Assembly: GCA_025210395.1 (NCBI GenBank)
Contig: JAOARV010000031.1
Coordinates: forward strand, 66,646-106,645
From: Marinisporobacter sp.
GTDB lineage: Bacteria > Bacillota > Clostridia > Peptostreptococcales > Thermotaleaceae
Reading direction: 5' to 3'
DNA: 40,000 nt
Shown piece by piece: positions 10,455 to 27,061 of the stretch (its first letter is position 1; the number at the start of each line of letters is the position of its first letter). The position numbers and the translations under genes are program-made. The notes below the pieces were generated by a model. It saw nothing but the letters and a program-made list of their open reading frames with translations. It searched no databases and had not been told where the DNA came from.

Positions 10455-10479
10455 TAGGCTAGGGATAACCCCTAGCCTA
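10455..10479. terminator. Bidirectional hairpin at the plsC / tail-cluster junction
   Basis: TAGGCTAGGG, loop ATAA, CCCTAGCCTA. A T-run follows on the - strand (AAATTTTTTTG) and TTTC on the + strand. Overlaps the holin stop codon. Confidence 0.65.
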
Positions 10480-10885
10480 TTTCATTATTCTCCTCTTTCA
10501 TTTTTTTCAATACCTTCACGATAAAGCTTGGAAGAGGTACACCCAAAACTCCAATATTTTCTATAATGGATATACCTTCATTGGCAATATAAAAATAAAT
10601 AGTCATCCCTCTAAATACAGGCTGCTCCCCACCTGTTGCCAAATCCATCTGATGTGCCAAAACAATCACAATAAAAATAGCCGCCTTCTTCAGCAGCCCT
10701 CGGTGTCCAATCTCACTGGATATTTCTTTATTTTTTAGCCCTTTCATCAATCCTGTTATATAGTCCGTTATCATCAATATTACTAAAATGTTTATAATGT
10801 TGTTCCACTCTCCAATCAATGCACTCATCACAGTTCCTAACCCTGCTAAAGCCATGTTTAGTGTTATTTTTAGGTTCATTAGCAT
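10472..10885 (-). CDS. Phage holin (toxin-secretion/phage-lysis holin family, phi LC3/TcdE-like)
   Basis: 137 aa, 3-4 TM. MITDYITGLMKG...YIANEGISIIENIG is the family signature. The true start may be the third codon (ATG 10879), 6 nt after AGGAAG. Confidence 0.8.
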   Translation of the reverse strand: MLMNLKITLNMALAGLGTVMSALIGEWNNIINILVILMITDYITGLMKGLKNKEISSEIGHRGLLKKAAIFIVIVLAHQMDLATGGEQPVFRGMTIYFYIANEGISIIENIGVLGVPLPSFIVKVLKKMKEENNEIG

Positions 10886-10922
10886 CTTCCTTTTTTAGTA
10901 TTGTTTGTGTCTCATTTTTTTC

Positions 10923-11057
10923 CTATTGTGTAATTTGTGGCGTTGCTAAAATCATATCTCTTTCTTGTTCTGTAATTCTTCCACGAGTACATTGCGTGCT
11001 AACAAATTTTTCGTCTACTTTTCTTAGAATCCACATGTTTAAAATAAAATTATACAT
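10923..11057 (-). CDS. XkdX-family small phage protein (copy 2)
   Basis: Below the track cutoff. My translation: MYNFILNMWILRKVDEKFVSTQCTRGRITEQERDMILATPQITQ* (44 aa). Has the G-x-IT-x-E/Q motif and sits at the end of a tail-fibre cassette, as XkdX does. Confidence 0.5.
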   Translation of the reverse strand: MYNFILNMWILRKVDEKFVSTQCTRGRITEQERDMILATPQITQ

Positions 11058-11060
11058 ATT

Positions 11061-11189
11061 CTATCCCTCCATCATAATATTTACAAGTGCCTGTTCTAAT
11101 GCTTCAATACGTTCTTTTTCTGTTGGTTTCTTTGATTGTTCTTTTTCTTTATCAATTTCTTTTTGCGTTTTCCATGGTATATTCGCCAT
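11061..11189 (-). CDS. Small phage protein (42 aa, charged/coiled)
   Basis: My translation: MANIPWKTQKEIDKEKEQSKKPTEKERIEALEQALVNIMMEG*. ATG 11189 is preceded by AGGAGGTG. Positionally equivalent to the 42-aa ORF at 14427..14555. Confidence 0.5.
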   Translation of the reverse strand: MANIPWKTQKEIDKEKEQSKKPTEKERIEALEQALVNIMMEG

Positions 11190-11191
11190 AG

Positions 11192-11467
11192 TTACACCTC
11201 CTGCCAAGTTGGAAATTTTTCTTTCTTTGTTGCATCTTTTCCTATGTAATTAATTAAAATCACACTCAAAATACCATCTTTTCTTTCAGCACTAATAATT
11301 GGATTTATAGACAAACTTGTTTCTATTTCTTCTTTTGCTTTTCCATCTGCCATAGCAGAAAAATCGAATGTATCTGTTATATTGTCTAATGTTACTGATA
11401 TTTTTTCTTCCTCAAATGCATAATTAATTTTTTGATCACTTCTTTGTGGGCTATATAATATCCTCAC
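11192..11467 (-). CDS. Phage hypothetical protein downstream of fibre 2 (XkdW position)
   Basis: Track ORF is 11192..11500. GTG at 11467 (MRILYSPQRSDQK...) is preferred because GGAGGTGGAAATA precedes it and it overlaps the upstream stop by 1 nt. No recognised domain. Confidence 0.55.
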   Translation of the reverse strand: MRILYSPQRSDQKINYAFEEEKISVTLDNITDTFDFSAMADGKAKEEIETSLSINPIISAERKDGILSVILINYIGKDATKKEKFPTWQEV

Positions 11468-11982
11468 TATTTCCACCTCCCAATTGCAAAAACATTGCAA
11501 TTACTTATACTGTCACCATCTTGAAAATCTGTCATTCCATTTATTCGCCTCATAGAAAATTGTGCAACCCCAGTACTTTTGTAACTACATCCACTTAGTC
11601 CTATCATATCTCTGCTTGGTGTTATATTTACATCAGCAGAATTACTAGAAAGTAGAAAAAATACATTTCCGATTGCGATAAATGATGCTGGAAAATTCCA
11701 AGTTGAATCAAGATATTCGTTGCTTTCATACCCTAATGATAAGGTGTTCCAGCATATTTGTGTACCATCATCGAATCTAATATATTCTCCATTACTATTG
11801 CTACCGCTTTCTGTTATATGTTTTTTCGTACTTTCTGCCTGATGCGACATAATCTTTTGATTAACTCCCTTTAAAGCCTGATCAATCTTAGCATTATCCT
11901 CCACAAAATCTGATCTCTTTGGATATTCATTTCCTTCCCATTGATTTAACCCTAAATATTCTGTTCTATTTTTACTTGGCAT
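11467..11982 (-). CDS. Short tail fibre / receptor-binding protein (copy 2)
   Basis: 171 aa. N-terminus YLGLNQWEGNEYPKRSDFVEDNAKIDQAL is the common fibre N-terminal adaptor motif. C-terminus ...GEYIRFDDGTQICW...NVFAIGRWK is a gp53-like knob ending in AIGxW. Confidence 0.7.
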   Translation of the reverse strand: MPSKNRTEYLGLNQWEGNEYPKRSDFVEDNAKIDQALKGVNQKIMSHQAESTKKHITESGSNSNGEYIRFDDGTQICWNTLSLGYESNEYLDSTWNFPASFIAIGNVFFLLSSNSADVNITPSRDMIGLSGCSYKSTGVAQFSMRRINGMTDFQDGDSISNCNVFAIGRWK

Positions 11983-12615
11983 TTACGACACCTCTCTTCT
12001 ACTCATTGCTTTTTCAATCAACACTAATAAAGGTCCAAAATCAGGTTTTTCTTTAATAACATTTCTCCAATACTCTGGACTTAAAATGATATTATCTTTT
12101 AATCTTTCAATAGCCTCTATTCCTTTTTCTATTCTCCAGTCATTTGTAGGCTTTAATAGCTCTTGGTCTACTTGCTCTAAATGATATTCCTCTATAATCT
12201 GTTGAAGTTTTTTAGGATAATGTGGATCTGTGGCATATCCTGCTTTGTATACTTCATTGGTAGCTTCTAAATAATCTTTTGCCTTGCAAACATTTTTATA
12301 TCTATTGACGGTACCGATGAGTCTTTGATAGTCCCTTACACTATCTTCTAAATGATCATAAGCTCTAAATGTAGCCTGTACAGTTATCATTTTTTCTCCA
12401 TTCCATTCCTTTGTAGGTAATGTAATTGTTTTTCCTTTCCAGTACTTTCCCGTTTTGAAGCCAAAATAATTGTTTGCACTCCCCATATGCTTCGTTCCAA
12501 AGCTACTTTCAAGACAAGCTTGTGCAATACATAGTGCTGGTAAAATATTATATTTTTCATAGCCTTCCTTTGCAATAGGTATCAATTGATTGATAAAATC
12601 CTGCTTATTCATCAT
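11983..12615 (-). CDS. Mannosyl-glycoprotein endo-beta-N-acetylglucosaminidase (GH73) with an unassigned C-terminal tail of about 60 aa
   Basis: 210 aa. LCIAQACLESSFGTKH...NNYFGFK...YATDPHYPKKL are GH73/LytD-type motifs. Start overlaps the XkdU-2 stop (ATGA) and the stop abuts the fibre-2 start. Confidence 0.8.
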   Translation of the reverse strand: MMNKQDFINQLIPIAKEGYEKYNILPALCIAQACLESSFGTKHMGSANNYFGFKTGKYWKGKTITLPTKEWNGEKMITVQATFRAYDHLEDSVRDYQRLIGTVNRYKNVCKAKDYLEATNEVYKAGYATDPHYPKKLQQIIEEYHLEQVDQELLKPTNDWRIEKGIEAIERLKDNIILSPEYWRNVIKEKPDFGPLLVLIEKAMSRREVS

Positions 12616-13163
12616 CGTACCCCCTTATAAATTTCAAATTCATCCCAACTAAGATTTAACTGATCCCACTTATCCCAAGTTTTATTGTAATCATCAAATT
12701 CATTCCAAATGAGATAATTAAAAATATATGCTATTGCCAGATGGGCAGGCTTTATATCTTCTAAAGCCTGCTTTAAATCCTCCATATTTGGAGGGATTCC
12801 ATACACACTCTCAAACTCAATGTGGATTTTTCCATCAAAGGTTACTTTCACATCCCCATTTGTATATGCATCTGCTACGAGTTTGATTAGGTTTCTATCT
12901 ACCTTTCCAGCACCTCTCCATTTAGATTTGATAGTACTTCTTCGTTCCTCATAAGGTCTATTTAGGTCTGTTGGTATCCCTAATTCTTTTTCATAAAGCT
13001 CTAGTGCCCATGTAGCTGTGTCAATTGCTAGTTGTTTCTCTAAATCTTTTATCATTAATGCTTTTCTATCAAGCTCTTGTCCCTGTACACTTATAAGCTC
13101 TTGAAAAACCTTGCTCTTTTGCTCAAAGATAGGTAAATACTTTAACATTCTTTCTTTAACCAA
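12612..13163 (-). CDS. XkdU/YmfQ-like baseplate protein (DUF2313), copy 2
   Basis: 183 aa. YLP..., ...RRSTIKSKWRG.G..., ...IPPNMEDLKQALEDIKPAHL are DUF2313 hallmarks. TTG start behind AGGAGGGG. Confidence 0.75.
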   Translation of the reverse strand: MVKERMLKYLPIFEQKSKVFQELISVQGQELDRKALMIKDLEKQLAIDTATWALELYEKELGIPTDLNRPYEERRSTIKSKWRGAGKVDRNLIKLVADAYTNGDVKVTFDGKIHIEFESVYGIPPNMEDLKQALEDIKPAHLAIAYIFNYLIWNEFDDYNKTWDKWDQLNLSWDEFEIYKGVR

Positions 13164-14223
13164 TATTCACCCCTCCTAACACAGATACTTGTTCATTTAC
13201 TATAGAAATATTTTTATTCTGCCCATTAATCCTTAACTCAGAAAAATCAATAATCCCTATAGAGTCTAATATAATACTTGTAATTTTGTTGTAGCTTACC
13301 TTATTTTCTTTAAATGCAATCTCTTTTAAATAAGCACTAATATTTTTCTTTACATCTTCTTTGATAGCTACGTCTGTCACGGCAAGATCTTTTTCTGTAA
13401 CCTTAAAATATATATCTAAAGTTATAGGAGTAGCACTTACAACAGTGCAAAAAGCACCTATAGGTGCTTTTCCTTCTCCTAATCCCTTTGCCTCTGGGTC
13501 AATATATTGTTGAACTTTTCTTGCTAAATCTGCATTAGGTTTTTTCTCCTTGTCTATAATGATCACTTTAACGGTATTCGGTTGATCATTAGGAAGAGAA
13601 ATCACCTTTACGTCTCCTACACCTGTAACTTCCTTTGCCCAGTTTCGATAATGATACTTATTCCCCGATGTAGCAGGAGTCTGTATCCTTTCATAATATC
13701 TTTGCAAAAGCTCTTGGTCACTTTCTGCTTCATAACCATTTTTAAACTCTTTTTGATTCGTTACATTTTTAAGCCCTGTGAGGGTAGCAGGGAAAGATTT
13801 GATAGCTCCTATAGGTACATTTCCTATAGAACCATATTCTTCACACGCTACTAAAATATCTACTTGTCCCTGATCAATAGTTTTGTTTTCCTTTATGATG
13901 AAATTTACCGTATCACTTGCAACTAAATCATTTTCTTTTACCTTTGCACCTATATTACCTATAATAGTCACATATCCACTTGCTTTTGTTGCAGCCTTTC
14001 TTTTAATCCCTGTTCTCTCATAAACTCTTTGTTCTAGCTCTAAACCTTTTAGATTCTTCATCATGAGTTTTCCTTCTACTACTTTTATTTCTTTTCCTAT
14101 GCTTTCTAATTCAATGGCAGTAGGCTTTAATGCATCATAAAAAAAAGAGCCTTCAGATTTGTCATAAGTCTCTGATATGCTCCTAAGCATTCTATTTTGT
14201 ATGGTTTCTTTATTTTCTACCAT
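13156..14223 (-). CDS. Baseplate J-like protein (XkdT/gp47 family), copy 2
   Basis: Track ORF is 13156..14250. ATG 14223 (MVENKETIQNRM...) is preferred because AAGGAGGTG lies 7 nt upstream. Conserved blocks SEGSFFYDALKP and TPATSGNKYHYRNWAKEV. Confidence 0.8.
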   Translation of the reverse strand: MVENKETIQNRMLRSISETYDKSEGSFFYDALKPTAIELESIGKEIKVVEGKLMMKNLKGLELEQRVYERTGIKRKAATKASGYVTIIGNIGAKVKENDLVASDTVNFIIKENKTIDQGQVDILVACEEYGSIGNVPIGAIKSFPATLTGLKNVTNQKEFKNGYEAESDQELLQRYYERIQTPATSGNKYHYRNWAKEVTGVGDVKVISLPNDQPNTVKVIIIDKEKKPNADLARKVQQYIDPEAKGLGEGKAPIGAFCTVVSATPITLDIYFKVTEKDLAVTDVAIKEDVKKNISAYLKEIAFKENKVSYNKITSIILDSIGIIDFSELRINGQNKNISIVNEQVSVLGGVNIG

Positions 14224-14249
14224 GAGTTTCACCTCCTTATAAAAGTGCA

Positions 14250-14278
14250 TAAAAATAACACCTGGTTTAAATGGTGTT
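14250..14278 (-). terminator. Intrinsic terminator between fibre cassette 1 and cassette 2
   Basis: On the - strand: AACACC, loop ATTTAAACCA, GGTGTT, then ATTTTTAT. The stem pairs 14257..14262 with 14273..14278. A short 6-bp stem. Confidence 0.5.
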
Positions 14279-14305
14279 TATAGTAAATTCAATGATATTC
14301 TTCCT

Positions 14306-14434
14306 TTATGATGCAACAATTTCCTCATACTGATCTTGTGTAATCCATCCTAACCTTAGTATTCTATCTAGTTGTTCTTTTGTCATCCAATTATTAGAGT
14401 AATATTCCCTTGCAATTTTGTACCAATCATGCAT
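14306..14434 (-). CDS. XkdX-family small phage protein (copy 1)
   Basis: My translation: MHDWYKIAREYYSNNWMTKEQLDRILRLGWITQDQYEEIVAS* (42 aa), a textbook XkdX pattern (W..y....t.eq....v..g.IT.eqYeeI). RBS AGAGGAGGAAAAG. Confidence 0.7.
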   Translation of the reverse strand: MHDWYKIAREYYSNNWMTKEQLDRILRLGWITQDQYEEIVAS

Positions 14435-14555
14435 TTTCTTTTCCTCCTCTTAATAAATCTAATTCAATCTGCAAGTCAATGACCTTCTGTGCTAATATTT
14501 CTATATCATTAGATGCTTTTTCAATTTCTACTGGACTTTTAACAACTACTTTCAA
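14427..14555 (-). CDS. Small phage protein (42 aa, coiled)
   Basis: TTG 14555 follows AGGGAGGGATAGAC. My translation: (M)KVVVKSPVEIEKASNDIEILAQKVIDLQIELDLLRGGKENA*. Overlaps the XkdX-1 start (ATGCATGA). Confidence 0.45.
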   Translation of the reverse strand: MKVVVKSPVEIEKASNDIEILAQKVIDLQIELDLLRGGKENA

Positions 14556-14557
14556 GT

Positions 14558-15013
14558 CTATCCCTCCCTTATCTCTATGACATTGATTTGTACTTCATCA
14601 AGAGTAATCGTATCTTTTGTAACAGAAAACCATGCAAGTCTGTCAATCATGTTGCTTGGTACTTTATCAAAATGTGATTCTAACTTTCCGATTTCTTTTG
14701 ATAATACGGTGATTCCATCTTCACAAAGCCACACTTCATAGTCATATCCCGTGGATATTTGGATTTCTGCTCCATCCAGTGGAATTTTAGTTCCTGTTGG
14801 TACTTGCTTCTTTATTTCTACTTCTTGCTGTGTTTCTTCATCCCACACTGTTTCTGTTACTGTGGTCATTTCTTCTGTATAATTTTTAAATAATTCCTTA
14901 TTTCCTGCTGTGTAATGAGTTCCGTCAATTTTTAGTTTCATGCCTTCTGTTGTTACTTTGAAGTCATGTAAAGCAGTATCAAGACTTCCTGTTACTACAT
15001 GTAGTGTTATCAT
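14558..15013 (-). CDS. Phage hypothetical protein downstream of fibre 1 (possible fibre accessory/chaperone)
   Basis: 151 aa, RBS AAGGAGGAATAATT. No motif recognised; function inferred only from position. Confidence 0.5.
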   Translation of the reverse strand: MITLHVVTGSLDTALHDFKVTTEGMKLKIDGTHYTAGNKELFKNYTEEMTTVTETVWDEETQQEVEIKKQVPTGTKIPLDGAEIQISTGYDYEVWLCEDGITVLSKEIGKLESHFDKVPSNMIDRLAWFSVTKDTITLDEVQINVIEIREG

Positions 15014-15025
15014 AATTATTCCTCC

Positions 15026-19641: not shown

Positions 19642-20057
19642 TATAATCTCACCGCCTTATCTATTAGAAAATAGGTTTGTTCATCTGTAGACGGAACCAA
19701 TATAACTATATCCCCTTTTTTAAGGGTATCTGTATATTTCATAGTCCCTGTAATAGTCGTTTGTGCACCAACACTTCCACTAACTACCTTATATGTTGTA
19801 GGTGGTGGACTTGTTTGAAGTGTAATAGAACCACCCTCTCCGTTGGTTTGTATATTTCCTTTTACTTCTATTTCTCTTTGATAATCCTTTAATACATGTG
19901 CTGCTATGACTAAGTGTTCTTTTGTTAGGATGATCTTGTCTCCAAGAGATACTTGAATATTAGGGGGAGGGCTAAGTACCATTCCTGTCTGTGGTCCTAG
20001 ATAAGGTTGATTATCCCTTTCTTTAAACAATTTAGCCAGTTCACTAATGCCATCCAT
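19641..20057 (-). CDS. XkdR-like protein (DUF2577; spike/central baseplate component)
   Basis: 138 aa. ...GMVLSPPPNIQVSLGDKIILTKEHLVIA... matches the DUF2577 pattern. Located between the XkdQ-like and XkdS-like genes. Confidence 0.6.
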   Translation of the reverse strand: MDGISELAKLFKERDNQPYLGPQTGMVLSPPPNIQVSLGDKIILTKEHLVIAAHVLKDYQREIEVKGNIQTNGEGGSITLQTSPPPTTYKVVSGSVGAQTTITGTMKYTDTLKKGDIVILVPSTDEQTYFLIDKAVRL

Positions 20058-21025: not shown

Positions 21026-21026
21026 A

Positions 21027-21467
21027 TTACACCTCCTTTTGTTCTAGTTGTATGAATTTGAATTCGCTCAAGGTAAGGGTATAATATATATCCCCACTAC
21101 CATCCTGCTGCCCATATTCAAAGCTTTCTATCGTACAAGCCATATTCCCTAAATGATCAGGCATATCATTAATAATCATTCGAATGGGTACTCTTCTATT
21201 TTTCCATTTTTCAAGCATGTCTACATAGTCCCATGCTTTGTACTGTTGATTTTCTTCTAAACCTCTTAAAAAAGGATACTTATGGTTTGGGAAAAATGAT
21301 TGTATGCTAATGCTCCTTAAATTTTTCATGCCTATCAGCTTGATTTCTCCCTGACTTATGGTATCAAAGGTTTCATTTTTCATTCCTGATTGTATTTTAA
21401 ATTCCTTTGGCAAAACAGGAAGTGTAAAAAATTGCTCTCTATTGTTTACTGAAAGTAAAATATCCAT
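21027..21467 (-). CDS. XkdP-like tail protein, N-terminal domain only (no LysM)
   Basis: 146 aa. LPVLPKEFKIQSG...IESFEYGQQDGSGDIYYTLTLSEFKF resembles the N-domain of XkdP-type proteins, which usually carry a C-terminal LysM. None is seen here. Confidence 0.5.
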   Translation of the reverse strand: MDILLSVNNREQFFTLPVLPKEFKIQSGMKNETFDTISQGEIKLIGMKNLRSISIQSFFPNHKYPFLRGLEENQQYKAWDYVDMLEKWKNRRVPIRMIINDMPDHLGNMACTIESFEYGQQDGSGDIYYTLTLSEFKFIQLEQKEV

Positions 21468-21480
21468 GAATGCACCTCCT

Positions 21481-23280
21481 TTATGCGTATGTAGGTTGGT
21501 TGGACATGGCTTCTTTTAGTCTTGGGATCAACTTATTAGCAATTTCTTCACTAGACATATTGGCACCTGTAATATTGAATGTAAGATTATTTCTTATATG
21601 CTGACGAGTTCTACGATCTTCCGATTTTATCCCCATATTTTTATTGCTTTGTCCATGTACTGGATGATTTCTCGTTGGGTTTTTAACATAATTATTTCTA
21701 TATAGATTCATTATATTTGATCCTACTCGTTTTCCATATTTTGTGATTCCTAAATTTTTAGTATTAGCTTTATACTCCAGTTTCATTTCATGCTGCGTAT
21801 TAATCTTATTTTGTGATTTAGGAATGAAATGATTCCTACTAATACTATATTTTCCATTTTGTAACTTTTCTTTCATTAAATCTACTTGCTTAGTTGCACC
21901 TGTAAGATTGAATGTAAGATTATTTCTTATATGCTGACGAGTTCTACGATCTTCTGATTTTATCCCCATATTTTTATTGCTTTGTCCATGTACTAGATGA
22001 TTTCTCATTGGGTTTTTAACATAATTATTTCTATATAGATTCATTATATTTGACCCTAATTGTTTTCCATATTTTGTTATTCCTAAATCTTTAGTATTAG
22101 CTGTATACTCCAGTTTTATTTCATGCTGTGTATTAATCTTGTTTTGTGATTCAGGAATAAAATGATTCCTACTACTACTATATTTTCCATTTTGTAACTT
22201 TTCTTTCATTAAAGCTACTTGCTTAGATGGAGTATATTTATCTTTGATCTTGTTCCAAGTATTATTAATAACCCTTACGCTGTTTGTCTCTAAATTTTTT
22301 AAATTATTTTCTTTTATTTGTGCTTTAAACTTTTGATCTTTTGTTCTTTCATTCTCACGTATAGAAATAGGCACGGTTCTATTTCCTAGATCCTTGATTT
22401 GTGGATAATTTTGCATATATGAATCTAGATTAATTGGTATATTTAAATCTTTTGGAGGAATAAAATACTTATTAATTTCCGCTCTCATAGGATCATCTAA
22501 TATATTTTTATACACCATCGTAAGAGGAGTAGTCACTATAGCAGATGTTCCCAAGCTAACTAAATCTACAGCTGCAAGAAATTGTATACATTCATCTTCT
22601 TTTTTCTCCCTCAGTGTTTTTATAGCAAATAATATAGTAAGAGGAGTAAATATATTTTTTGAAATTGTATTTTGTAATGCTTTAAATCTAGATAAATTTT
22701 TTATAGATCCTTCAACCCATCTTTTTATTGGTCCTGATTGTTTTATTAAATCTTTATTATTTCCCATTTTCCCCCACAATTCAATCATCTTTTGTGAGGC
22801 TATCCCTGCTTTACTAGCCATATCAATTGTCTTATTTTTTAAAAGTAATTGGTTTTTTTTAGAAATTGATATATTTTTTACAAATTTTGAAAATTCCCTC
22901 CCTATCTTTGTATCCAAAAACCAAGTACCATAAGATATCCCCGAACCATAAGAACCATCACCATTATCAATTTCTCCATTTCTATTACTATCTACAGGCG
23001 TATCTACAAATTCGCCAAATTGTTCCATAAATTCGTCAAATGAATTGATTATAAAAGGTTTTATATAATTATCTATATTTTTATTTAACCACTTTCCTAT
23101 AGGATTTGTCTGTCCAATATTTCTTCTAGGATCAGTTTTTTTACAAAGTTCATTAGATTTTTTCATGATTTCTATATATGGATTTTTAAATTGATTCTTT
23201 CCATCATTCTCATCTTTTTTTATTAACTTCTTATCTATTTCTTTAGACTTCATTGTTTCTTTCTCCATTTTATTACCCAT
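21481..23280 (-). CDS. Tail tape measure protein
   Basis: 599 aa in the canonical slot after the chaperone pair. Central hydrophobic segments (TPLTILFAI, AAVDLVSLGTSAIVTTPL). C-terminal 2 x 111-aa tandem repeat. RBS AAGGTGGTGAG. Confidence 0.7.
   Translation of the reverse strand: MGNKMEKETMKSKEIDKKLIKKDENDGKNQFKNPYIEIMKKSNELCKKTDPRRNIGQTNPIGKWLNKNIDNYIKPFIINSFDEFMEQFGEFVDTPVDSNRNGEIDNGDGSYGSGISYGTWFLDTKIGREFSKFVKNISISKKNQLLLKNKTIDMASKAGIASQKMIELWGKMGNNKDLIKQSGPIKRWVEGSIKNLSRFKALQNTISKNIFTPLTILFAIKTLREKKEDECIQFLAAVDLVSLGTSAIVTTPLTMVYKNILDDPMRAEINKYFIPPKDLNIPINLDSYMQNYPQIKDLGNRTVPISIRENERTKDQKFKAQIKENNLKNLETNSVRVINNTWNKIKDKYTPSKQVALMKEKLQNGKYSSSRNHFIPESQNKINTQHEIKLEYTANTKDLGITKYGKQLGSNIMNLYRNNYVKNPMRNHLVHGQSNKNMGIKSEDRRTRQHIRNNLTFNLTGATKQVDLMKEKLQNGKYSISRNHFIPKSQNKINTQHEMKLEYKANTKNLGITKYGKRVGSNIMNLYRNNYVKNPTRNHPVHGQSNKNMGIKSEDRRTRQHIRNNLTFNITGANMSSEEIANKLIPRLKEAMSNQPTYA
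21559..22224 (-). repeat. Tandem direct repeat, 2 x 333 bp, in frame inside the tape measure gene
   Basis: Unit 1 is 21892..22224 (aa 353-463) and unit 2 is 21559..21891 (aa 464-574). 99 of 111 aa are identical by my count. The DNA is visibly near-identical at a 333-nt offset (for example GCACCTGTAA at 21563 and 21896). Confidence 0.9.
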
Positions 23281-23338
23281 CCACTCACCACCTTCTCTTA
23301 AAAAATAAAACCATAAAAAGCACCCCTATGGGTACTTC

Positions 23339-23485
23339 CTATGATTCATACTGTTCTTTCATCATTTTCTCTAACTCTTCCATTTCCTTCTCATAAAAAG
23401 CCATGAGGAGAATCATCTCTCCCCTTGGCATGTTGTATAGCACAGATGGTCGGATGCCTTTTGTTTTCCAGTAGTAGTAAAGCAT
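23339..23485 (-). CDS. Small ORF in the -1 frame after the chaperone gene (48 aa from its ATG; probable frameshift extension, gpT-like)
   Basis: My translation: MLYYYWKTKGIRPSVLYNMPRGEMILLMAFYEKEMEELEKMMKEQYES*. The frame stays open upstream through the last codons of the XkdN-like gene. Confidence 0.55.
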   Translation of the reverse strand: MLYYYWKTKGIRPSVLYNMPRGEMILLMAFYEKEMEELEKMMKEQYES

Positions 23486-23508
23486 CTGTGTAAAACCATC
23501 TGTGTTGA

Positions 23509-23904
23509 TTAGTTTTTTACTTCTTCTACTGCTCCACCATCAAATCCACTTAGTTCTCCAATGATGTTGTATAATGTTATGATTTCTCCAGGAAGAAGAA
23601 GCTTTGTCACTAAATCCTTTGGTGTATAAACATGAAATTTATCCATCAGCTCTTTGCTTTTTAGACTTGGGCTTTTTACTCCTTCTATAACGGTCATTCT
23701 TTGAAGCTCTCCTATGTTGATGCTTTCTTGTTCTTCATCCATAGCTAGCTCTTGGATTTCTTCCATTTTATCAGGGGTTAGTGCTTCTACTCGAAAGATT
23801 ACCTTTTCTCCTATTGCCTCTGATAGTCTTTTCATTTCAACTTCTTTACTTGGCTTTCTTAGTTTGCTTTCATCTAGCTGTAATAACAAATCTAATGTAT
23901 TCAT
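23509..23904 (-). CDS. XkdN-like tail assembly chaperone
   Basis: 131 aa, acidic, between the tube and tape measure genes. LDESKLRKPSKEVEMKRLSE...FRVEALT resembles the XkdN/TAC family. RBS AAGGAGGAAG. Confidence 0.7.
   Translation of the reverse strand: MNTLDLLLQLDESKLRKPSKEVEMKRLSEAIGEKVIFRVEALTPDKMEEIQELAMDEEQESINIGELQRMTVIEGVKSPSLKSKELMDKFHVYTPKDLVTKLLLPGEIITLYNIIGELSGFDGGAVEEVKN
23512..23518 (-). promoter_or_regulatory. Putative -1 programmed ribosomal frameshift heptamer A_AAA_AAC
   Basis: - strand reads GT A AAA AAC TAA. The X_XXY_YYZ heptamer occupies the last two sense codons of the chaperone ORF. The -1 frame continues for about 58 codons to stop 23339. Confidence 0.6.
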
Positions 23905-23915
23905 AAGCTTCCTCC

Positions 23916-24362
23916 TTATTCTGGATTGATTACATCTGTAAAGTCATAGCCTGTAAATGTAAATGGACATTCTACCTTTCCTAATGCTTTTGCTTCAAAA
24001 TTCATTAATGTTAAATCATCAAAGCTAACCCCTGTTAATGCTACTCTTTCTGATTGAGCATCTACTGTATCTGGATCAGCAAGCTTGGATACGATTGTAA
24101 ATCTAATATCTTTTCCCTTCTTGATCATATCGCCTAGCTTGATTGCCATTCTTGAGTTTACTTTGTGCATCTTTACAGTTCCTTTTCCTTCCCAGCCTGT
24201 AACCTTTGTATCTTTAGCAAGGACTCCACACATATTTACATCTTCTTTTTTTAATGTAACCTTTGCTTCAAGTCCTGTCAATTCACTTACCTTATCTCCA
24301 TCTAACCAAATTTCTCCCCACGTTCCGTTAATCACTCTATTTCCAGGTATTTTGTTTGCCAT
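23916..24362 (-). CDS. Tail tube protein (XkdM-like)
   Basis: 148 aa directly after the sheath gene. INGTWGEIWLDGDKV...GKGTVKMHKV pattern of XkdM-type tube proteins. Confidence 0.8.
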   Translation of the reverse strand: MANKIPGNRVINGTWGEIWLDGDKVSELTGLEAKVTLKKEDVNMCGVLAKDTKVTGWEGKGTVKMHKVNSRMAIKLGDMIKKGKDIRFTIVSKLADPDTVDAQSERVALTGVSFDDLTLMNFEAKALGKVECPFTFTGYDFTDVINPE

Positions 24363-24374
24363 ATTTATTCCCTC

Positions 24375-25445
24375 CTACATGAATATTTCCATTGTTAAGT
24401 CTTCCATCGCATCTAAGAATTTCACATGTGCTTTGATAAAGACTTCACTTCCTGTATTGTATTCCTTGATTTCTTGTTCTTTTAATGAATCTACATCTAC
24501 ACCTTTTTTCATTAGGTATATCTTTTGGGTATCCATATCGATCATTGCCTTATTTTCATAAGCATTGTCTAATACATCAATTCTTTCTAACTCTTGAAAA
24601 TATGCATTGATGGCTGCTAAGAATAGTACTTTATTATCATATGAATTGATAATTTTTCCAACATAAGAACCATCAAAGGTGTCATGAATATCATCTCTCA
24701 TCAAGTCTACTGCATCTACAATCTTGATCTTTTTAAATTCCTCTCCCTTTGTAGCAGTAGTTGTTGTAAGAGAGTTTACCCCTCTACCGATCTTGATTTT
24801 TACGCCATCGTTGATTAAGATTAATTTTCCATTGTCAATATCTACATCTGGATTATCTGATTCTGTAATGGCTTCTACTTCATTAAGTTCATAGTAAGTA
24901 GAACTTCTTGTAAATGGTAATCCAGCAAGAATTCCTGCGATTCTACAAGTATATTGACTCGCACTATAAGGAACAACCTTATCCTTGTCTACTCTCACCT
25001 GGATGCCTTCTGTAGCAAAATTAATGATTCCTTCATGATCTGCCACTATATTTGGTAATACTGCTTTAAATGTCTTTTTGTTGTTGTCTCTTTGTCCTTT
25101 GACCCATGAAACAATATTTTGTACATCCTTTTGTTCAATTCCTGGAATAGCAAGATAGTTCCACTTTTTGCTTTTTAATCGCTTAAGGGCTTCTGAATAA
25201 TCTTCATCTGCATTGATTCTTTCAACGATAATTTTGCTAGGTATTCCCATAAAGGTTTTTTCAATATAGCCTTTATTTTCAGAGGTCCAATCCTCTGCCT
25301 TTAATTCATCTATTGCCTTATAGATCATTGTGTCAAAATCCTTTGTACCATCCTTTAAAATCAATGCTACAATTCCTCTAGCACTTCTCTTGATAGCTGT
25401 CGTTCCTTTTGTTTTAAATTCTATAGAAATTTTTGGTAATCCCAT
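24375..25445 (-). CDS. Contractile tail sheath protein (XkdK-like)
   Basis: 356 aa. Size, position and N-terminus (MGLPKISIEFKTKGTTAIKRSARGIVALILKD) are typical of small Firmicute sheath proteins. Confidence 0.85.
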   Translation of the reverse strand: MGLPKISIEFKTKGTTAIKRSARGIVALILKDGTKDFDTMIYKAIDELKAEDWTSENKGYIEKTFMGIPSKIIVERINADEDYSEALKRLKSKKWNYLAIPGIEQKDVQNIVSWVKGQRDNNKKTFKAVLPNIVADHEGIINFATEGIQVRVDKDKVVPYSASQYTCRIAGILAGLPFTRSSTYYELNEVEAITESDNPDVDIDNGKLILINDGVKIKIGRGVNSLTTTTATKGEEFKKIKIVDAVDLMRDDIHDTFDGSYVGKIINSYDNKVLFLAAINAYFQELERIDVLDNAYENKAMIDMDTQKIYLMKKGVDVDSLKEQEIKEYNTGSEVFIKAHVKFLDAMEDLTMEIFM

Positions 25446-25888
25446 TATTTTTCCTCCTTCATACTTAGTTGTTGCATCTTTTCATAATTTTGATAATCAT
25501 ATAGCTTCCTTTCATCCACAGTATCCATAAATTGTATTTCAAAAGAAAATGCTAATACCTTATTGACTATACTTACTTTGCTTTCTTGAATGGTAAATTT
25601 TCTATTCTTTACAATCAATAATGGATGAAAAATTTCTTGTAGTTTTTCTAAAGCTTTTAGATTCTCTTCCATGGTTTCACTTTTTGAAAAATATCGTATA
25701 TCTATTTTCATAAGCTTATTTTGATGATATTTATCCTCCATGGTAGTTGAAATCGGTAAAGCTTGTATGAAAAATGCAGGTTGATCCAAATCTTTATCCT
25801 GCATACTTTCACAGAAATGATATTTAGGAAAGCTTTCCTTGATCTTTTCTATGACAGCCTTTTGAATTTCAATGAATGTCATCCTCAT
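25445..25888 (-). CDS. Tail terminator / tail completion protein (XkdJ position)
   Basis: 147 aa immediately upstream of the sheath gene. FIEIQKAVIEKIKESFPKY...PAFFIQALPIS resembles phage tail terminator family proteins. Confidence 0.55.
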   Translation of the reverse strand: MRMTFIEIQKAVIEKIKESFPKYHFCESMQDKDLDQPAFFIQALPISTTMEDKYHQNKLMKIDIRYFSKSETMEENLKALEKLQEIFHPLLIVKNRKFTIQESKVSIVNKVLAFSFEIQFMDTVDERKLYDYQNYEKMQQLSMKEEK

Positions 25889-26187
25889 CTCTCCTTTGAC
25901 ATCCGTCTTTGCTTCATCTTTCTTTGAATAATCTCCCCTGATAAATGATGAATATCTAAAAGATCCATCATATACTCCTCATCTAATGCCAATCCTGTTT
26001 GAGCTTTTTTTAACGCTTCTTTCATTGTTTCTATCTGGTTCTTATAAGTATTTCTCTCTTTGATCACCTTATTGAGCCGGGTTCTTGGAACAAAGCTTTG
26101 ATCATTTACTATAAGTTTTTTGTTTCCTAGCTTTTCTTTTAGTTGGTCATATAACTTTTGACCTAGTATTTCTTTTAAGTGTTTCAT
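25885..26187 (-). CDS. Short protein with a phage scaffold (GP20-like) N-terminal motif; first gene of the structural operon
   Basis: 100 aa. LKEILGQKLYDQLKEKLGNKKLIVNDQSFVPRTRLNKVIKERNTYKNQIE resembles the N-terminus of GP20-type scaffold/minor structural proteins, which are usually about twice as long. From memory, not searched. Confidence 0.35.
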   Translation of the reverse strand: MKHLKEILGQKLYDQLKEKLGNKKLIVNDQSFVPRTRLNKVIKERNTYKNQIETMKEALKKAQTGLALDEEYMMDLLDIHHLSGEIIQRKMKQRRMSKER

Positions 26188-26266
26188 AGTATTCTCTCCT
26201 CATTCCATTACGTTTTTTACGTGCAACGCCACGAATGGATGGTTTAGAAACTTGCTAGCAGTTTTT

Positions 26267-26328
26267 CTTATTTTAAAGTATAATATAGAAATTTTAATAA
26301 TATCGGTTTAGTTTCGGCAATTTTTCGG
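26267..26328 (-). promoter_or_regulatory. Conserved 62-nt promoter-like module, copy B (upstream of the structural operon; overlaps the 3' end of the regulator gene)
   Basis: - strand: CCGAAAAATTGCCGAAACTAAACCGATATTATTAAAATTTCTATATTATACTTTAAAATAAG. Matches copy A at 47 of 62 positions without gaps. Ends 79 nt before ATG 26187. Confidence 0.55.
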
Positions 26329-26841
26329 AATATTTACTTCTGTAAATTGTAAAATCATACTGTTTTTCAATATTCTTATCATTTTCGTAATGGCTTTATT
26401 TTTTATTGCTCTACATTGTCTTTCCTCTATATTGATTTGAAAAGTAATATATCTCCAAATTTTCTTTTCAATATATTTCATTTGAATAATTTGCTTTTCA
26501 ATATCTGTCAAGCTTTCTATTGCGTTGTAGATTCTTTGTAAAAATCTCTCTACATGTCTTTTTTCAAATTCAAGCAAATCGATCTTGTGCTGGATTTCAA
26601 AATCCTTTACAGCTTGTATTTCTGTTTTCGAAAAAAAGCTATTGGTCTTAATAAAATTTTCATAATCTATTCCTTTTAAACTTAAATACTTCATATCTTT
26701 TAAATCTGCAATTTGTAATTCTATTTCTTTTATTTTTGCTTCATATTGCTTTAAGTTCTTTAATATGTTTTCAACACTTTTCATATTTAAACTTTTTTCA
26801 TTTTTACTTTGTATATTTTGTTCTAATGCTTGTGCATACAT
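26308..26841 (-). CDS. Phage late-gene transcriptional regulator, sigma-70 region-4 / ArpU-RinA-like
   Basis: 177 aa. C-terminus LTDIEKQIIQMKYIEKKIWRYITFQINIEERQCRAIKNKAITKMIRIL looks like a region-4 type HTH. First gene of the cluster. Confidence 0.5.
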   Translation of the reverse strand: MYAQALEQNIQSKNEKSLNMKSVENILKNLKQYEAKIKEIELQIADLKDMKYLSLKGIDYENFIKTNSFFSKTEIQAVKDFEIQHKIDLLEFEKRHVERFLQRIYNAIESLTDIEKQIIQMKYIEKKIWRYITFQINIEERQCRAIKNKAITKMIRILKNSMILQFTEVNIPKNCRN

Positions 26842-26934
26842 TACTCATCACCACCAAAATTTTTTTGTTTATAAAGAATTCAAATATAAATAAATCCATG
26901 TCATTTATCAATCATTTCGTTCCATCAAACTTTT

Positions 26935-26996
26935 GTTATTTTAGAGTATACTATACATTTTTTCATAAAATTGGCATATATTCGGCACTTTTCCGG
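26935..26996 (-). promoter_or_regulatory. Conserved 62-nt promoter-like module, copy A (upstream of the regulator gene)
   Basis: - strand: CCGGAAAAGTGCCGAATATATGCCAATTTTATGAAAAAATGTATAGTATACTCTAAAATAAC. Contains direct CCGrAA repeats about 11 nt apart and TATACT / TAAAAT -10-like hexamers. Ends 93 nt before ATG 26841. Confidence 0.55.
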
Positions 26997-27030
26997 AGAT
27001 TTCATAACAATCATAAAGTGCCTATAGAAA

Positions 27031-27061
27031 ATTATACCATATTTTTTCGAACAAGTGTTCT
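27031..27061 (-). promoter_or_regulatory. Extended -10 promoter (TGgTATAAT) with an overlapping LexA/Cheo box, facing the regulator gene
   Basis: + strand CGAACAAGTGTTCT (27048..27061) matches the Cheo box CGAACRNRYGTTYC at 13 of 14 positions. On the - strand it sits over the -35 region of TGGTATAAT (27039..27031). Confidence 0.6.

What the first reader, a model, noticed from the sequence alone, without database searches (positions are those of the whole stretch)
10472..27061. Head-less PBSX-like contractile-tail locus (R-type tailocin candidate) in an ori-proximal chromosomal slot
All 26 ORFs between 10472 and 26841 lie on the - strand, mostly with overlapping or abutting stops and starts. 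They form a complete tail-only parts list in canonical order:
- regulator, tail terminator, sheath, tube
- chaperone with frameshift extension, tape measure
- XkdP/Q/R/S-like hub, spike and wedge proteins
- baseplate J, XkdU-like, fibres, XkdX
- GH73 hydrolase and holin

Nothing resembling terminase, portal, prohead protease, major capsid, integrase, CI/Cro or replication genes is present in the cluster or anywhere else in the 40 kb. Both flanks are plain chromosomal genes: plsC on the left and a ytrA-type ABC operon on the right. No flanking direct repeat (att) was spotted.

This is the architecture of domesticated phage-tail bacteriocins (R-pyocins, C. difficile diffocins), not of an inducible prophage. 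Combined with the regulatory wiring and doubled specificity cassette reported separately, this looks like a distinct, apparently uncharacterised tailocin layout.
Basis: partly seen in the sequence, partly recalled or inferred. Interest (0 to 1): 0.7.

Follow-up and report, generated by a model that had tools for sequence, protein, structure and literature searches.

The report
Head-less diffocin-like tailocin with two fibre cassettes
This is a conserved chromosomal gene cluster in a marine anaerobe (Marinisporobacter/Crassaminicella) that builds a contractile phage tail without a head, most likely a DNA-damage-induced killing particle like the diffocins of C. difficile. Unusually, it carries two alternative baseplate-plus-fibre sets.

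Summary
Positions 10472-26841 carry 26 co-oriented minus-strand ORFs that form a complete contractile-tail set plus holin and GH73 lysin. No terminase, portal, capsid, integrase, repressor or replication gene was found among the ORFs scanned across the 40 kb, nor in about 5 kb more on the right flank (stored Pfam hits). The only head trace is a 100-aa N-terminal fragment of a GP20-type scaffolding protein.

- **Closest solved relatives:** diffocin parts CD1362, 1363, 1364, 1367, 1368, 1371 and 1372.
- **Conservation:** the locus is collinear, in the same slot near oriC, in Crassaminicella profunda, M. balticus and Anaerophilus. dN/dS is 0.06-0.26, like the flanking housekeeping genes, while both fibres are swapped beyond their N-terminal anchors. 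More distant sheath relatives (57-71% identity) are full prophages with heads.
- **Regulation:** a LexA box overlapping an extended -10 promoter, conserved in four genera, precedes a RinA/ArpU-like activator. A 15-nt motif sits before both the activator gene and the late operon.
- **Distinct features:** there are two divergent Baseplate_J + XkdU + fibre cassettes (three in Wukongibacter), and the hub lacks diffocin's hydrolase domain.

Verdict: a real, maintained, uncharacterised R-type tailocin. It is a new variant of a known kind and of moderate interest. No particles or killing have been shown.

The parts
27048..27060 (.). LexA (Cheo) box, CGAACAAGTGTTC. It is the only GAAC-N4-GTTC in the 40 kb.
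   Evidence: 0.21 expected by chance. CGAAC-N4-GTTCG is conserved at the same place upstream of the regulator in M. balticus, Anaerophilus and Geosporobacter.
27031..27039 (-). Extended -10 element (TGgTATAAT) of the putative SOS-controlled promoter of the regulator gene. The LexA box covers its -35/spacer region.
   Evidence: Read directly. TGTGGTATAAT is invariant in the four-genus alignment A1.
26936..26950 (-). Copy 1 of the 15-nt motif TATACTCTAAAATAA, in the leader of the regulator gene. Putative activator-dependent promoter (autoregulation).
   Evidence: Exact match; conserved in A1. Function is inferred.
26308..26841 (-). Late-gene activator, 177 aa, RinA/ArpU/sigma-70-region-4-like.
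   Evidence: phrog_36 transcriptional regulator, 8e-20. Sub-threshold RinA, ArpU and sigma70-ECF hits. 83% identical in C. profunda, dN/dS 0.10.
26268..26282 (-). Copy 2 of the motif (TATACTTTAAAATAA), upstream of the first late gene. Putative late promoter.
   Evidence: conserved in M. balticus and Anaerophilus (A2). Function is inferred.
25885..26187 (-). 100-aa N-terminal fragment of a GP20-type head scaffolding protein. It is the only head-module vestige; it is retained, but its role is unknown.
   Evidence: PF06810 1.4e-5, below cutoff. phrog_194 1e-5. Full-length 176-178 aa copies score 73-92 bits in head-less relatives. Phage homologues are annotated as scaffold. A 100-aa form is 76% identical in C. 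profunda, dN/dS 0.26.
25445..25888 (-). Tail terminator / collar.
   Evidence: PF20765 1.7e-25; diffocin collar CD1362 1.3e-5.
24375..25445 (-). Contractile sheath, 356 aa.
   Evidence: PF04984/PF17482; diffocin sheath CD1363 4.9e-78.
23916..24362 (-). Tail tube.
   Evidence: DUF2001 2.7e-48; diffocin tube CD1364 9e-41 and PBSX XkdM 1e-18.
23509..23904 (-). XkdN-type tail assembly chaperone.
   Evidence: PF08890 3.7e-25.
23339..23518 (-). -1 frameshift extension of the chaperone. Slippery A_AAA_AAC at 23518-23512; the -1 frame is open to the stop at 23339.
   Evidence: the 48-aa ORF matches phrog_2722 at 2.9e-12. Frameshifting itself is inferred.
23308..23347 (-). Strong hairpin plus U-run between the chaperone and tape-measure genes. 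Likely a partial terminator that separates high-copy trunk genes from low-copy genes.
   Evidence: dG -23.3 kcal/mol, z -5.5. Hairpins at the equivalent site in five related loci have different stem sequences; those in L016, L005 and L007 are followed by a U-run, and L006 and L009 less clearly. Role is inferred.
21481..23280 (-). Tape measure protein, 599 aa, with an internal 333-nt tandem duplication (21558-21857 / 21891-22190).
   Evidence: Assigned by position and size. No family hit. Duplication 94% identical. Only the last ~82 aa align to relatives.
21027..21467 (-). Tube initiator (XkdP-like, without LysM).
   Evidence: Diffocin 'tube tail' CD1367 2.7e-17; phrog_5184 9e-42.
20057..21025 (-). 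Baseplate hub (XkdQ/YQBQ), 322 aa, without a hydrolase domain.
   Evidence: PF24032 3.7e-65. Matches only residues 7-309 of the 581-aa diffocin hub-hydrolase CD1368.
19641..20057 (-). XkdR-like DUF2577 protein (central spike candidate).
   Evidence: PF10844 1.3e-20. No PDB sequence hit.
19195..19641 (-). Sheath initiator (gp25/XkdS-like).
   Evidence: PF10934 6.7e-29.
14306..19198 (-). Wedge/fibre cassette A:
- Baseplate_J: 18089-19198
- XkdU-like Tri1: 17526-18104
- 839-aa fibre: 15026-17545
- 151-aa ORF: 14558-15013
- 42-aa ORF: 14427-14555
- XkdX: 14306-14434
   Evidence: CD1371 2.8e-34; CD1372 8e-15; fibre phrog_13022/6613/2929. Against C. profunda the wedge proteins are 85-93% identical but the fibre only 42%.
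10923..14223 (-). Wedge/fibre cassette B:
- Baseplate_J: 13156-14223
- XkdU-like: 12612-13163
- GH73 glucosaminidase: 11983-12615
- 171-aa fibre: 11467-11982
- Small ORFs: 11192-11500, 11061-11207 and 10923-11057
   Evidence: fibre C-terminus phrog_2712 4e-19. About 41% identical to the cassette A wedge proteins. 85-92% conserved in C. profunda, but the fibre is conserved only in its first 38 aa. The start at 14223 follows an AAGGAGGTG ribosome-binding site and matches independent gene calls.
10472..10885 (-). Holin.
   Evidence: PF05105 7e-38.
10455..10479 (.). Bidirectional intrinsic terminator closing the operon, convergent with plsC.
   Evidence: dG -19.5 kcal/mol, z -4.5.

Best explanation
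The block 10455-27060 is a domesticated, vertically inherited, head-less R-type phage-tail-like bacteriocin (tailocin) locus. Its host is a Marinisporobacter/Crassaminicella-lineage clostridium, and its closest characterised relative is the C. difficile diffocin.

Proposed mechanism, with each step marked as shown or inferred:
1. DNA damage removes LexA from a Cheo box that overlaps an extended -10 promoter. The box, the promoter and their conservation are shown; LexA binding is inferred.
2. This transcribes a RinA/ArpU/sigma-like activator. The activator fires a promoter carrying the 15-nt motif found both before its own gene and before the late operon, giving positive feedback (inferred).
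3. The 25 late ORFs are transcribed down to a terminator at 10455-10479. A conserved hairpin after the chaperone genes probably attenuates read-through, so that sheath and tube are made in excess over the baseplate (inferred).
4. Assembly starts at the baseplate core: the tape measure, the chaperone with its -1 frameshift form, the hub, the spike and the tube initiator. The sheath initiator and six triplex wedges (Baseplate_J plus XkdU-like) then join, and tube, sheath and collar complete the particle. This step is by homology to the diffocin structure.
5. Two divergent wedge-plus-fibre cassettes share conserved N-terminal core-docking segments, but differ in the XkdU C-terminal fibre adaptor and in the fibre. 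One trunk can therefore be armed with either an 839-aa or a 171-aa fibre, which would widen the target range (inferred).
6. The holin and the GH73 enzyme lyse the producer cell. The released particles bind related cells, contract and depolarise them (by analogy with diffocin and pyocin).
For: - **Parts list:** complete tail set, with no head, packaging, integration or replication genes found among the ORFs scanned in the 40 kb or in about 5 kb more on the right flank.
- **No head-tail connectors:** only the terminator/collar lies upstream of the sheath, while full-phage relatives have two to four small ORFs between capsid and sheath.
- **Diffocin homology:** the best PDB sequence matches for seven proteins are diffocin chains.
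- **Conserved slot:** the locus is collinear and in the same slot in the C. profunda complete genome, M. balticus and Anaerophilus.
- **Selection:** dN/dS is 0.06-0.23 for trunk genes, 0.10 for the regulator and 0.26 for the scaffold fragment, against 0.08-0.47 for flanking genes.
- **Fibre diversification:** the fibres diverge sharply (42% identity, or only 38 N-terminal residues conserved) while neighbouring genes are 85-97% identical.
- **Phage ancestry:** sheath relatives at 57-71% identity have head-type ORF sets upstream; Pfam confirmed TerL, portal and capsid in L011.
- **SOS control:** the LexA box plus TGTGGTATAAT is conserved in four genera.
- **Cassette design:** the Baseplate_J N-terminus is 60% identical between cassettes A and B against 41% overall, and the XkdU C-terminal tail is 8% identical. 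In diffocin the Tri1 C-terminus connects to the fibre (PMC10996793).
- **Published parallel:** diffocins are SOS-induced (PMC6088184, PMC4453579).
Against: - There is no experimental evidence of particles, induction or killing in any member of this clade.
- The regulator scores below NCBIfam cutoffs and has no Pfam hit.
- With up to 2 mismatches the 15-nt motif is not enriched (2 found, 2.5 expected). Its weight rests on two exact copies at the two regulatory sites and on their conservation.
- The hub lacks diffocin's hydrolase domain, so how the particle crosses a thick wall is unclear.
- Head genes elsewhere in the genome could not be searched for.
- Whether both cassettes are incorporated into particles is unknown.
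- The sequence comes from a metagenome-assembled genome, although three independent assemblies and an isolate genome agree with it.
Confidence: 0.78

Rival explanations
1. A decaying, functionless prophage remnant: the tail half of a myovirus left behind after deletions.
For: - The scaffold gene is reduced to a 100-aa fragment.
- There are no head or integration genes.
- The neighbouring gntR is frameshifted.
- The tape measure is highly divergent and internally duplicated.
Against: - All 26 ORFs are intact and tightly coupled.
- dN/dS of 0.06-0.26 is equal to or lower than that of flanking housekeeping genes.
- The same content and slot are kept across three named genera.
- The regulatory box and promoter are conserved.
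- Change is concentrated in the fibres only.
Confidence: 0.05
2. A tail-donor module. The tails would be completed in trans with capsids encoded elsewhere (a separate head-only element or satellite), giving transducing or infectious particles rather than bacteriocins.
For: - A tail terminator is present, which in phages is the face that docks to the head connector.
- A scaffold-family gene is retained.
- The rest of the genome could not be searched.
Against: - There are no head-tail adaptor or connector genes between the regulator and the terminator, whereas full-phage relatives have two to four small ORFs between capsid and sheath.
- The terminator matches the diffocin collar, which caps a head-less particle.
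- The locus has its own lysis genes and SOS-type control.
- The fibre diversification pattern is typical of tailocins (PMC12090994).
Confidence: 0.07
3. A contractile injection system with a role other than killing relatives: for example eCIS-like toxin delivery, or programmed lysis for release of DNA, vesicles or public goods.
For: - A contractile machine with lysis genes is compatible with several outputs.
- A GH73 enzyme is embedded in cassette B.
- The function of the small ORFs is unknown.
Against: - No AAA+ ATPase, toxin/effector or Afp/PVC-type genes are present.
- The closest relatives are diffocin and C. difficile myophage tails.
- Hypervariable fibres point to strain-level targeting.
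Confidence: 0.08

Closest known systems
Diffocin, the R-type bacteriocin of Clostridioides difficile (CD1359-CD137x; structures 8v3t/8v3w)
   Same: - Head-less chromosomal contractile-tail cluster in the same order (Peptostreptococcales).
- Same gene order.
- Sequence-level homologues of collar, sheath (about 45-50% identity), tube, tube tail, hub, Tri2 and Tri1.
- Diffocin is SOS-induced (PMC6088184), and a LexA box is predicted here.
   Different: - The hub lacks the C-terminal hydrolase domain of CD1368.
- Two tandem wedge-plus-fibre cassettes are present. I know of no such doubling in diffocin, but I did not check the C. difficile locus here.
- The fibres have no detectable relative in the PDB.
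- The tape measure is shorter (599 aa; diffocin's is modelled to residue 817).
- A scaffold fragment is retained.
- The sheath is about as close to C. difficile phage sheaths (48%) as to diffocin. Head loss was therefore probably independent (inference).
PBSX of Bacillus subtilis and PBSX-like defective myophages
   Same: - Tail-module order and families: XkdK, M, N, (O), P, Q, R, S, T, U, fibre, XkdX.
- The tube matches PBSX XkdM at 1e-18.
- A sigma-like late activator is analogous to Xpf (from my own knowledge).
   Different: - PBSX keeps terminase, portal and capsid genes and packages host DNA (my own knowledge). None of these is present here.
- The sheath is of the short, roughly 355-aa type.
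Multi-fibre tailocins of Gram-negative rhizosphere bacteria (a Pseudomonas chlororaphis tailocin with three fibre genes; kosakonicin)
   Same: One trunk is armed with alternative receptor-binding proteins encoded in tandem, which broadens the killing spectrum (PMC12090994; PMC6629978).
   Different: - From what those papers say, the extra genes there are tail-fibre genes. Here the triplex wedge proteins (Baseplate_J plus XkdU-like) are duplicated together with the fibre, its small accessory ORFs and, in cassette B, a GH73 enzyme.
- The host is Gram-positive.
- The review describes the multi-fibre trait as apparently distinctive of Gram-negative rhizosphere bacteria.
Small C. difficile / Terrisporobacter myophages (phiCD481-1, phiCDHM11/13/14, TPELB_ph1; phiCD119 for the scaffold)
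   Same: - They hold the closest sheath homologues among sequenced phages, at 48-52% identity.
- A GP20-type scaffold homologue occurs in phiCD119 and phiCD418.
   Different: These are complete temperate phages with heads. There is no nucleotide-level similarity.

Membership tests
R-type phage tail-like bacteriocin (tailocin) | Complete contractile-tail gene set: sheath, tube, chaperone, tape measure, hub/spike, sheath initiator, wedge, fibre and terminator. | tested here: met
   PDB matches. The tape measure is assigned by position and size only.
R-type phage tail-like bacteriocin (tailocin) | No capsid, portal, terminase, replication or integration genes in or next to the cluster. | tested here: met
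   Pfam on all 26 cluster ORFs and 23 flank ORFs; stored Pfam hits for TspO and the TPR protein. Extension beyond the right window end is housekeeping. The same holds in the C. profunda complete-genome region. The only trace is a scaffold fragment. The rest of the genome was not searchable.
R-type phage tail-like bacteriocin (tailocin) | Own lysis cassette for release. | tested here: met
   Holin PF05105 and GH73 PF01832, although the two are separated by the cassette B fibre genes.
R-type phage tail-like bacteriocin (tailocin) | Maintained by the host: vertical inheritance, purifying selection on the trunk, and diversification of the receptor-binding protein. | tested here: met
   Synteny; dN/dS; fibre divergence.
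R-type phage tail-like bacteriocin (tailocin) | Head-less particles are produced and kill related strains. | not testable with these tools
   Needs induction, EM and spot assays.
Diffocin family (C. difficile type) | Structural proteins homologous to CD1362-CD1372. | tested here: met
   CD1362 1.3e-5, CD1363 4.9e-78, CD1364 9e-41, CD1367 2.7e-17, CD1368 (hub part) 4.5e-11, CD1371 2.8e-34, CD1372 8e-15. The spike candidate has no PDB hit.
Diffocin family (C. difficile type) | Hub fused to a peptidoglycan hydrolase domain (the 'hub-hydrolase'). | tested here: not met
   The 322-aa hub aligns only to residues 7-309 of the 581-aa CD1368. Its only Pfam domain is YQBQ.
Diffocin family (C. difficile type) | SOS-inducible expression. 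| tested here: inconclusive
   A conserved LexA-box and promoter arrangement is predicted. Induction itself is not testable here.
PBSX-like defective prophage | Tail module of xkdK-xkdX type. | tested here: met
   XkdN, YQBQ, DUF2577, sheath initiator, Baseplate_J, Mu_Gp48 and XkdX families in order. XkdM match.
PBSX-like defective prophage | Terminase, portal and capsid genes, with particles that package DNA. | tested here: not met
   No such genes.
Extracellular contractile injection system (Afp/PVC type) | AAA+ ATPase, payload/toxin genes and an Afp-type baseplate. | tested here: not met
   No AAA+ or toxin domain in the cluster.
Inducible temperate myovirus prophage | Integrase, att repeats, CI/Cro-type switch, and replication and head modules. 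| tested here: not met
   None found. No att-like repeats, no tRNA, and no nucleotide match to phages.

The most novel reading that the evidence does not exclude
This clade of head-less loci would be a 'modular-baseplate' tailocin family. A single trunk operon would be armed by two or three tandem, divergent wedge (Baseplate_J plus XkdU) and fibre cassettes, one of them carrying its own GH73 hydrolase. Several particle types, or mixed-wedge particles, would then come from one induction. In addition, a fragment of a capsid scaffolding protein would have been co-opted for a tail-related role.

In the small sample examined, multiple cassettes track with head loss: 8 of the 9 head-less genomes examined have at least two cassettes, the three full prophages whose baseplate region was held have one each, and a fourth was cut before it.
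Probability: 0.35. Interest if true: 0.65.

Novelty: new variant of a known kind. Interest (0 to 1): 0.5.

Why it matters
- **Few Gram-positive examples.** A 2023 review calls diffocin the only widely recognised Gram-positive R-type tailocin and says clostridial 'tailocins' keep their capsid genes (PMC10538166). This locus and its relatives show truly head-less, selectively maintained R-type loci in at least seven other genera of anaerobic Clostridia.
- **A counter-example to the usual layout.** The tandem wedge-plus-fibre cassettes go against the stated norm of one fibre allele per tailocin (PMC12090994). They suggest a natural route to multi-specific particles. Because adaptor and fibre travel together, this could guide retargeting of Avidocin-type agents.
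- **Directly testable.** Crassaminicella profunda and M. balticus are cultured and sequenced.

Tried and rejected
- **Nucleotide similarity to phages:** megablast of the whole cluster against 50,697 phage records found nothing.
- **RNA elements:** an Rfam gathering-threshold scan of the window found nothing, so the roughly 190-nt regulator leader holds no known riboswitch or RNA.
- **Integration signals:** a direct-repeat search across both boundaries gave only short, low-identity chance pairs, and no tRNA integration site exists.
- **Invertible fibre switch (carotovoricin-like):** rejected. There is no recombinase, and the only inverted repeat is a single 25-nt pair at 76% complementarity.
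- **Terminator between cassettes A and B:** the hairpin at about 14262-14290 is not better than shuffled sequence (z -0.94), so I dropped it.
- **Cassette B as a recent duplicate of A:** rejected. The proteins are only about 41% identical, and the fibres and small ORFs are unrelated.
- **15-nt motif enrichment:** with up to 2 mismatches the motif is not enriched. I use only the two exact, conserved copies.
- **Gebhart 2012 (PMC3486368):** not held, so the diffocin regulator and accessory ORFs could not be compared.
- **Protein search with the 100-aa ORF:** only two hits, because of the word prefilter.

Full report
**1. Observation**

The window is about 30% G+C. Between 10472 and 26841, 26 ORFs lie head to tail on the minus strand, mostly with overlapping or abutting stops and starts. 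The plus-strand ORFs inside the block are short antisense overlaps.

In order they give:
- a transcriptional regulator (phrog_36, 8e-20)
- tail terminator (PF20765)
- sheath
- tube (DUF2001)
- XkdN-type chaperone
- a 599-aa tape measure, assigned by position only
- XkdP-like tube initiator
- YQBQ/XkdQ hub
- DUF2577 (XkdR-like)
- gp25-type sheath initiator
- Baseplate_J, Mu_Gp48/XkdU-like, an 839-aa fibre, small ORFs and XkdX
- a second Baseplate_J, a second XkdU-like, a GH73 glucosaminidase, a 171-aa fibre and three small ORFs
- a holin

The chaperone frameshift is credible. A slippery A_AAA_AAC lies at 23518-23512, two codons before the stop, and the -1 frame runs on to 23339.

**2. Absence of head genes**

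Pfam gave no capsid, portal, terminase, protease, integrase, repressor or replication domain for the 26 cluster ORFs or for 23 flank ORFs. The remaining flank genes, TspO and the TPR protein, carry only housekeeping-type stored Pfam hits.

- Left flank: plsC-type acyltransferase, an HPr-like protein, EamA, a Na/Ca exchanger and others.
- Right flank: a GntR gene, an ABC ATPase, an ABC-2 permease, TspO, a TPR protein, DAGK and others.
- ParB and ParA lie at 38634-39998. Just beyond the window come a noc-like ParB and rsmG, so the ori-proximal claim holds.

There is no tRNA, no att-like repeat above chance and no nucleotide match to any of 50,697 phage records.

The one head trace is the 100-aa ORF at 25885-26187. 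It matches the N-terminal third of the GP20-type scaffolding family (PF06810 1.4e-5, below cutoff; phrog_194 1e-5).

**3. Organism and relatives**

The sheath is identical to a protein that NCBI names from a Marinisporobacter sp. MAG, and it also occurs in three independent Logan assemblies.

- **Closest isolate.** Crassaminicella profunda (CP082326.1) has a locus that is fully collinear and in the same slot, from DAGK through TspO, ABC and GntR on one side to plsC, EamA and the Na/Ca exchanger on the other.
- **Same slot elsewhere.** M. balticus and Anaerophilus nitritogenes share the slot and the head-less layout.
- **Other head-less loci.** Wukongibacter (two species), Maledivibacter, Geosporobacter and Anaerovirgula carry related head-less loci in other contexts.
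- **Full prophages.** Sheath relatives at 57-71% identity have head-type ORF sets upstream: an Anaerosolibacter MAG, Caloranaerobacter, a Syntrophomonadaceae MAG and Chengkuizengella. Pfam confirmed TerL, portal and capsid in the Anaerosolibacter locus. They also have two to four small ORFs between capsid and sheath, where head-tail connector genes sit in phages, whereas the head-less loci keep only the terminator.

**4. Selection**

Against C. profunda, dN/dS is 0.06-0.23 for trunk and wedge genes, 0.10 for the regulator and 0.26 for the scaffold fragment. Eight neighbouring housekeeping genes give 0.08-0.47.

Trunk proteins are 81-97% identical. The 839-aa fibre, by contrast, is 42% identical, and the 171-aa fibre is conserved only in its first 38 residues. 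A conserved trunk with hypervariable receptor-binding proteins is the pattern described for tailocins (PMC12090994). A decaying remnant is therefore very unlikely.

**5. Closest characterised system**

The best PDB sequence matches for seven proteins are diffocin chains:

| Window protein | Diffocin chain | E-value |
|---|---|---|
| Terminator/collar | CD1362 | 1.3e-5 |
| Sheath | CD1363 | 4.9e-78 |
| Tube | CD1364 | 9e-41 |
| Tube initiator | CD1367 (tube tail) | 2.7e-17 |
| Hub | CD1368 (hub part only) | 4.5e-11 |
| Baseplate_J | CD1371 (Tri2) | 2.8e-34 |
| XkdU-like | CD1372 (Tri1) | 8e-15 |

Host and C. difficile belong to the same order. Three differences stand out:
- The hub (322 aa) lacks the hydrolase half of CD1368.
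- The fibres have no solved relative.
- The wedge-plus-fibre unit is doubled.

Among sequenced phages, the closest sheaths (48-52%) belong to small C. difficile and Terrisporobacter myophages. That is about as close as diffocin itself, so head loss here was probably independent of the diffocin lineage. This last point is an inference.

**6. Regulation**

The only GAAC-N4-GTTC in the 40 kb (0.21 expected by chance) is CGAACAAGTGTTC at 27048-27060. It lies in the divergent region between the regulator and gntR. On the minus strand it is followed after 8 nt by TGgTATAAT at 27039-27031.

The same CGAAC-N4-GTTCG plus TGTGGTATAAT arrangement stands upstream of the regulator homologue in M. balticus, Anaerophilus and Geosporobacter. 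This is the classic layout of a LexA-repressed promoter, and it fits the SOS induction reported for diffocins (PMC6088184, PMC4453579).

The regulator has weak RinA, ArpU and sigma-70 region 4 similarity. A 15-nt motif, TATACTYTAAAATAA, occurs exactly twice in the window: in the regulator's leader (26936-26950) and before the first late gene (26268-26282). Both copies are conserved in relatives.

I infer an SOS trigger feeding a self-amplifying activator that fires the late operon. LexA binding and activator dependence are not shown.

**7. The doubled cassette**

- **Cassette A** (14306-19198): Baseplate_J, XkdU-like, the 839-aa fibre, a 151-aa ORF, a 42-aa ORF and XkdX.
- **Cassette B** (10923-14223): Baseplate_J, XkdU-like, GH73, the 171-aa fibre and three small ORFs.

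The wedge proteins of A and B are about 41% identical, and the fibres and small ORFs are unrelated. This is therefore not a recent duplication. Identity peaks in the Baseplate_J N-terminus (60% in the first 40 aligned columns) and collapses in the XkdU C-terminal tail (8%).

In diffocin, the N-terminal segments of Tri1 and Tri2 form the core bundle, and the Tri1 C-terminus connects to the fibre (PMC10996793). The pattern fits two alternative fibre adaptors docking on one trunk.

Cassette counts in related loci:
- Both cassettes, including the embedded GH73: C. profunda.
- Both Baseplate_J/XkdU pairs (the held stretch ends in XkdU2, so GH73 was not seen): M. balticus.
- One cassette (type B): Anaerophilus.
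- Three in tandem: W. baidiensis.
- A second cassette upstream of the trunk, with an M15 peptidase: Geosporobacter and Anaerovirgula.
- One cassette each: the three full prophages whose baseplate region was held; the fourth locus (L015) ends before it.

No recombinase or meaningful inverted repeat suggests a switch, so co-expression is the default reading. Multi-fibre tailocins are known in P. chlororaphis and Kosakonia, and a 2024 review calls this an apparent peculiarity of Gram-negative rhizosphere bacteria. I did not find a description of wedge proteins duplicated together with the fibre, but my literature search was limited.

**8. Other features**

- **Hairpin.** A strong hairpin with a U-run lies between the chaperone and tape-measure genes (23308-23347; dG -23.3 kcal/mol, z -5.5). 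Hairpins stand at the equivalent site in five related loci with different stem sequences; three are followed by a U-run, and two less clearly. I read it as a partial terminator that favours sheath and tube output. This is inferred.
- **Tape measure.** It carries a 333-nt tandem duplication (94% identical). Only its last ~82 residues align with relatives.
- **Scaffold-family gene.** It is full length (176-178 aa, 73-92 bits) in Wukongibacter and Geosporobacter, and of similar length (169 aa, not Pfam-tested) in Anaerovirgula. It is shortened to 100 aa here and in C. profunda. Phage homologues are annotated as head scaffolding proteins. Because it survives the loss of all other head genes in most head-less loci, I suspect it has been co-opted. 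I cannot say for what.

**9. Verdict**

The locus is an uncharacterised, selectively maintained, probably SOS-induced R-type tailocin related to diffocin.

It fails one diffocin-defining feature, the hub-hydrolase fusion, and it is not a PBSX-type defective phage because it has no head. Its distinctive trait is the tandem wedge-plus-fibre cassettes shared across a clade.

Nothing here is categorically new, and no function has been shown experimentally. I rate it a new variant of a known kind, with interest 0.5.

Noticed in passing
window 27156-27377 (+), continuing to about 27514: The ytrA-type GntR repressor gene next to the tailocin regulator is frameshifted. It is 73 aa here, against 123-124 aa intact in C. 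profunda and M. balticus. The same 73-aa call appears in three independent assemblies, so an assembly error is unlikely. The downstream ABC operon may therefore be derepressed in this population.
   Followed up: partly
window 23308-23347 (-); L016 ~12841-12885; L005 ~12084-12121; L006, L007 and L009 equivalents: Stable hairpins lie between the chaperone-frameshift ORF and the tape-measure gene in the window and five related loci, with different stem sequences; the window and three loci have a following U-run, and L006 and L009 less clearly. This is possibly a partial terminator that sets trunk-to-baseplate stoichiometry.
   Followed up: partly
window 21558-21857 and 21891-22190 (within the tape measure gene 21481-23280): A 333-nt tandem duplication, 94% identical, adds about 111 residues to the tape measure. 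It is 599 aa here, 495 aa in C. profunda and 473 aa in M. balticus, which would predict a longer tail. Apart from its last ~82 residues the tape measure is not alignable to relatives, although the genes on either side are about 90% identical.
   Followed up: partly
window 25885-26187 (-); L007 8608-9138; L009 8992-9528; L010 5555-6064; L012 8603-9133: A GP20-type capsid scaffolding gene survives as the only head-module gene in most head-less loci of this clade. It is full length in some and cut to 100 aa here and in C. profunda, with dN/dS 0.26. Its role in a head-less particle is unexplained.
   Followed up: partly
L007 + L018 (Wukongibacter baidiensis CP138202.1, 4011030-4049157): This head-less locus has three tandem Baseplate_J + XkdU-like + fibre cassettes, followed by an M15 peptidase and XhlA-type lysis genes. 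L007 and L018 overlap, so the locus is contiguous.
   Followed up: partly
L009 2424-8873 (Geosporobacter ferrireducens); L010 2445-5168 (Anaerovirgula multivorans): In these two genera the second wedge/fibre cassette lies upstream of the trunk, ahead of the scaffold-like gene; in Geosporobacter it follows the regulator and carries an M15 peptidase. The cassette position is therefore not fixed.
   Followed up: no
window 11983-12615 (-) and 20057-21025 (-): The only peptidoglycan hydrolase (GH73) overlaps the XkdU2 stop and sits inside cassette B, four ORFs away from the holin. The hub lacks the hydrolase domain seen in diffocin. GH73 could be a plain endolysin or a particle-associated wall-degrading enzyme.
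   Followed up: no
L017 10242-11789 (C. profunda): At the position of the window's 171-aa fibre, C. profunda has a different set of ORFs: 125 aa, a 117-aa collagen-repeat protein, 181 aa and 77 aa. Only the first 38 residues are shared. This is a clear case of receptor-binding module swapping behind a conserved anchor.
   Followed up: partly
L016 7819-8655 (C. profunda): An MBL-fold gene with a weak Anti-Pycsar Apyc1 hit lies between gntR and the tailocin regulator in C. profunda. It is absent from the window.
   Followed up: no
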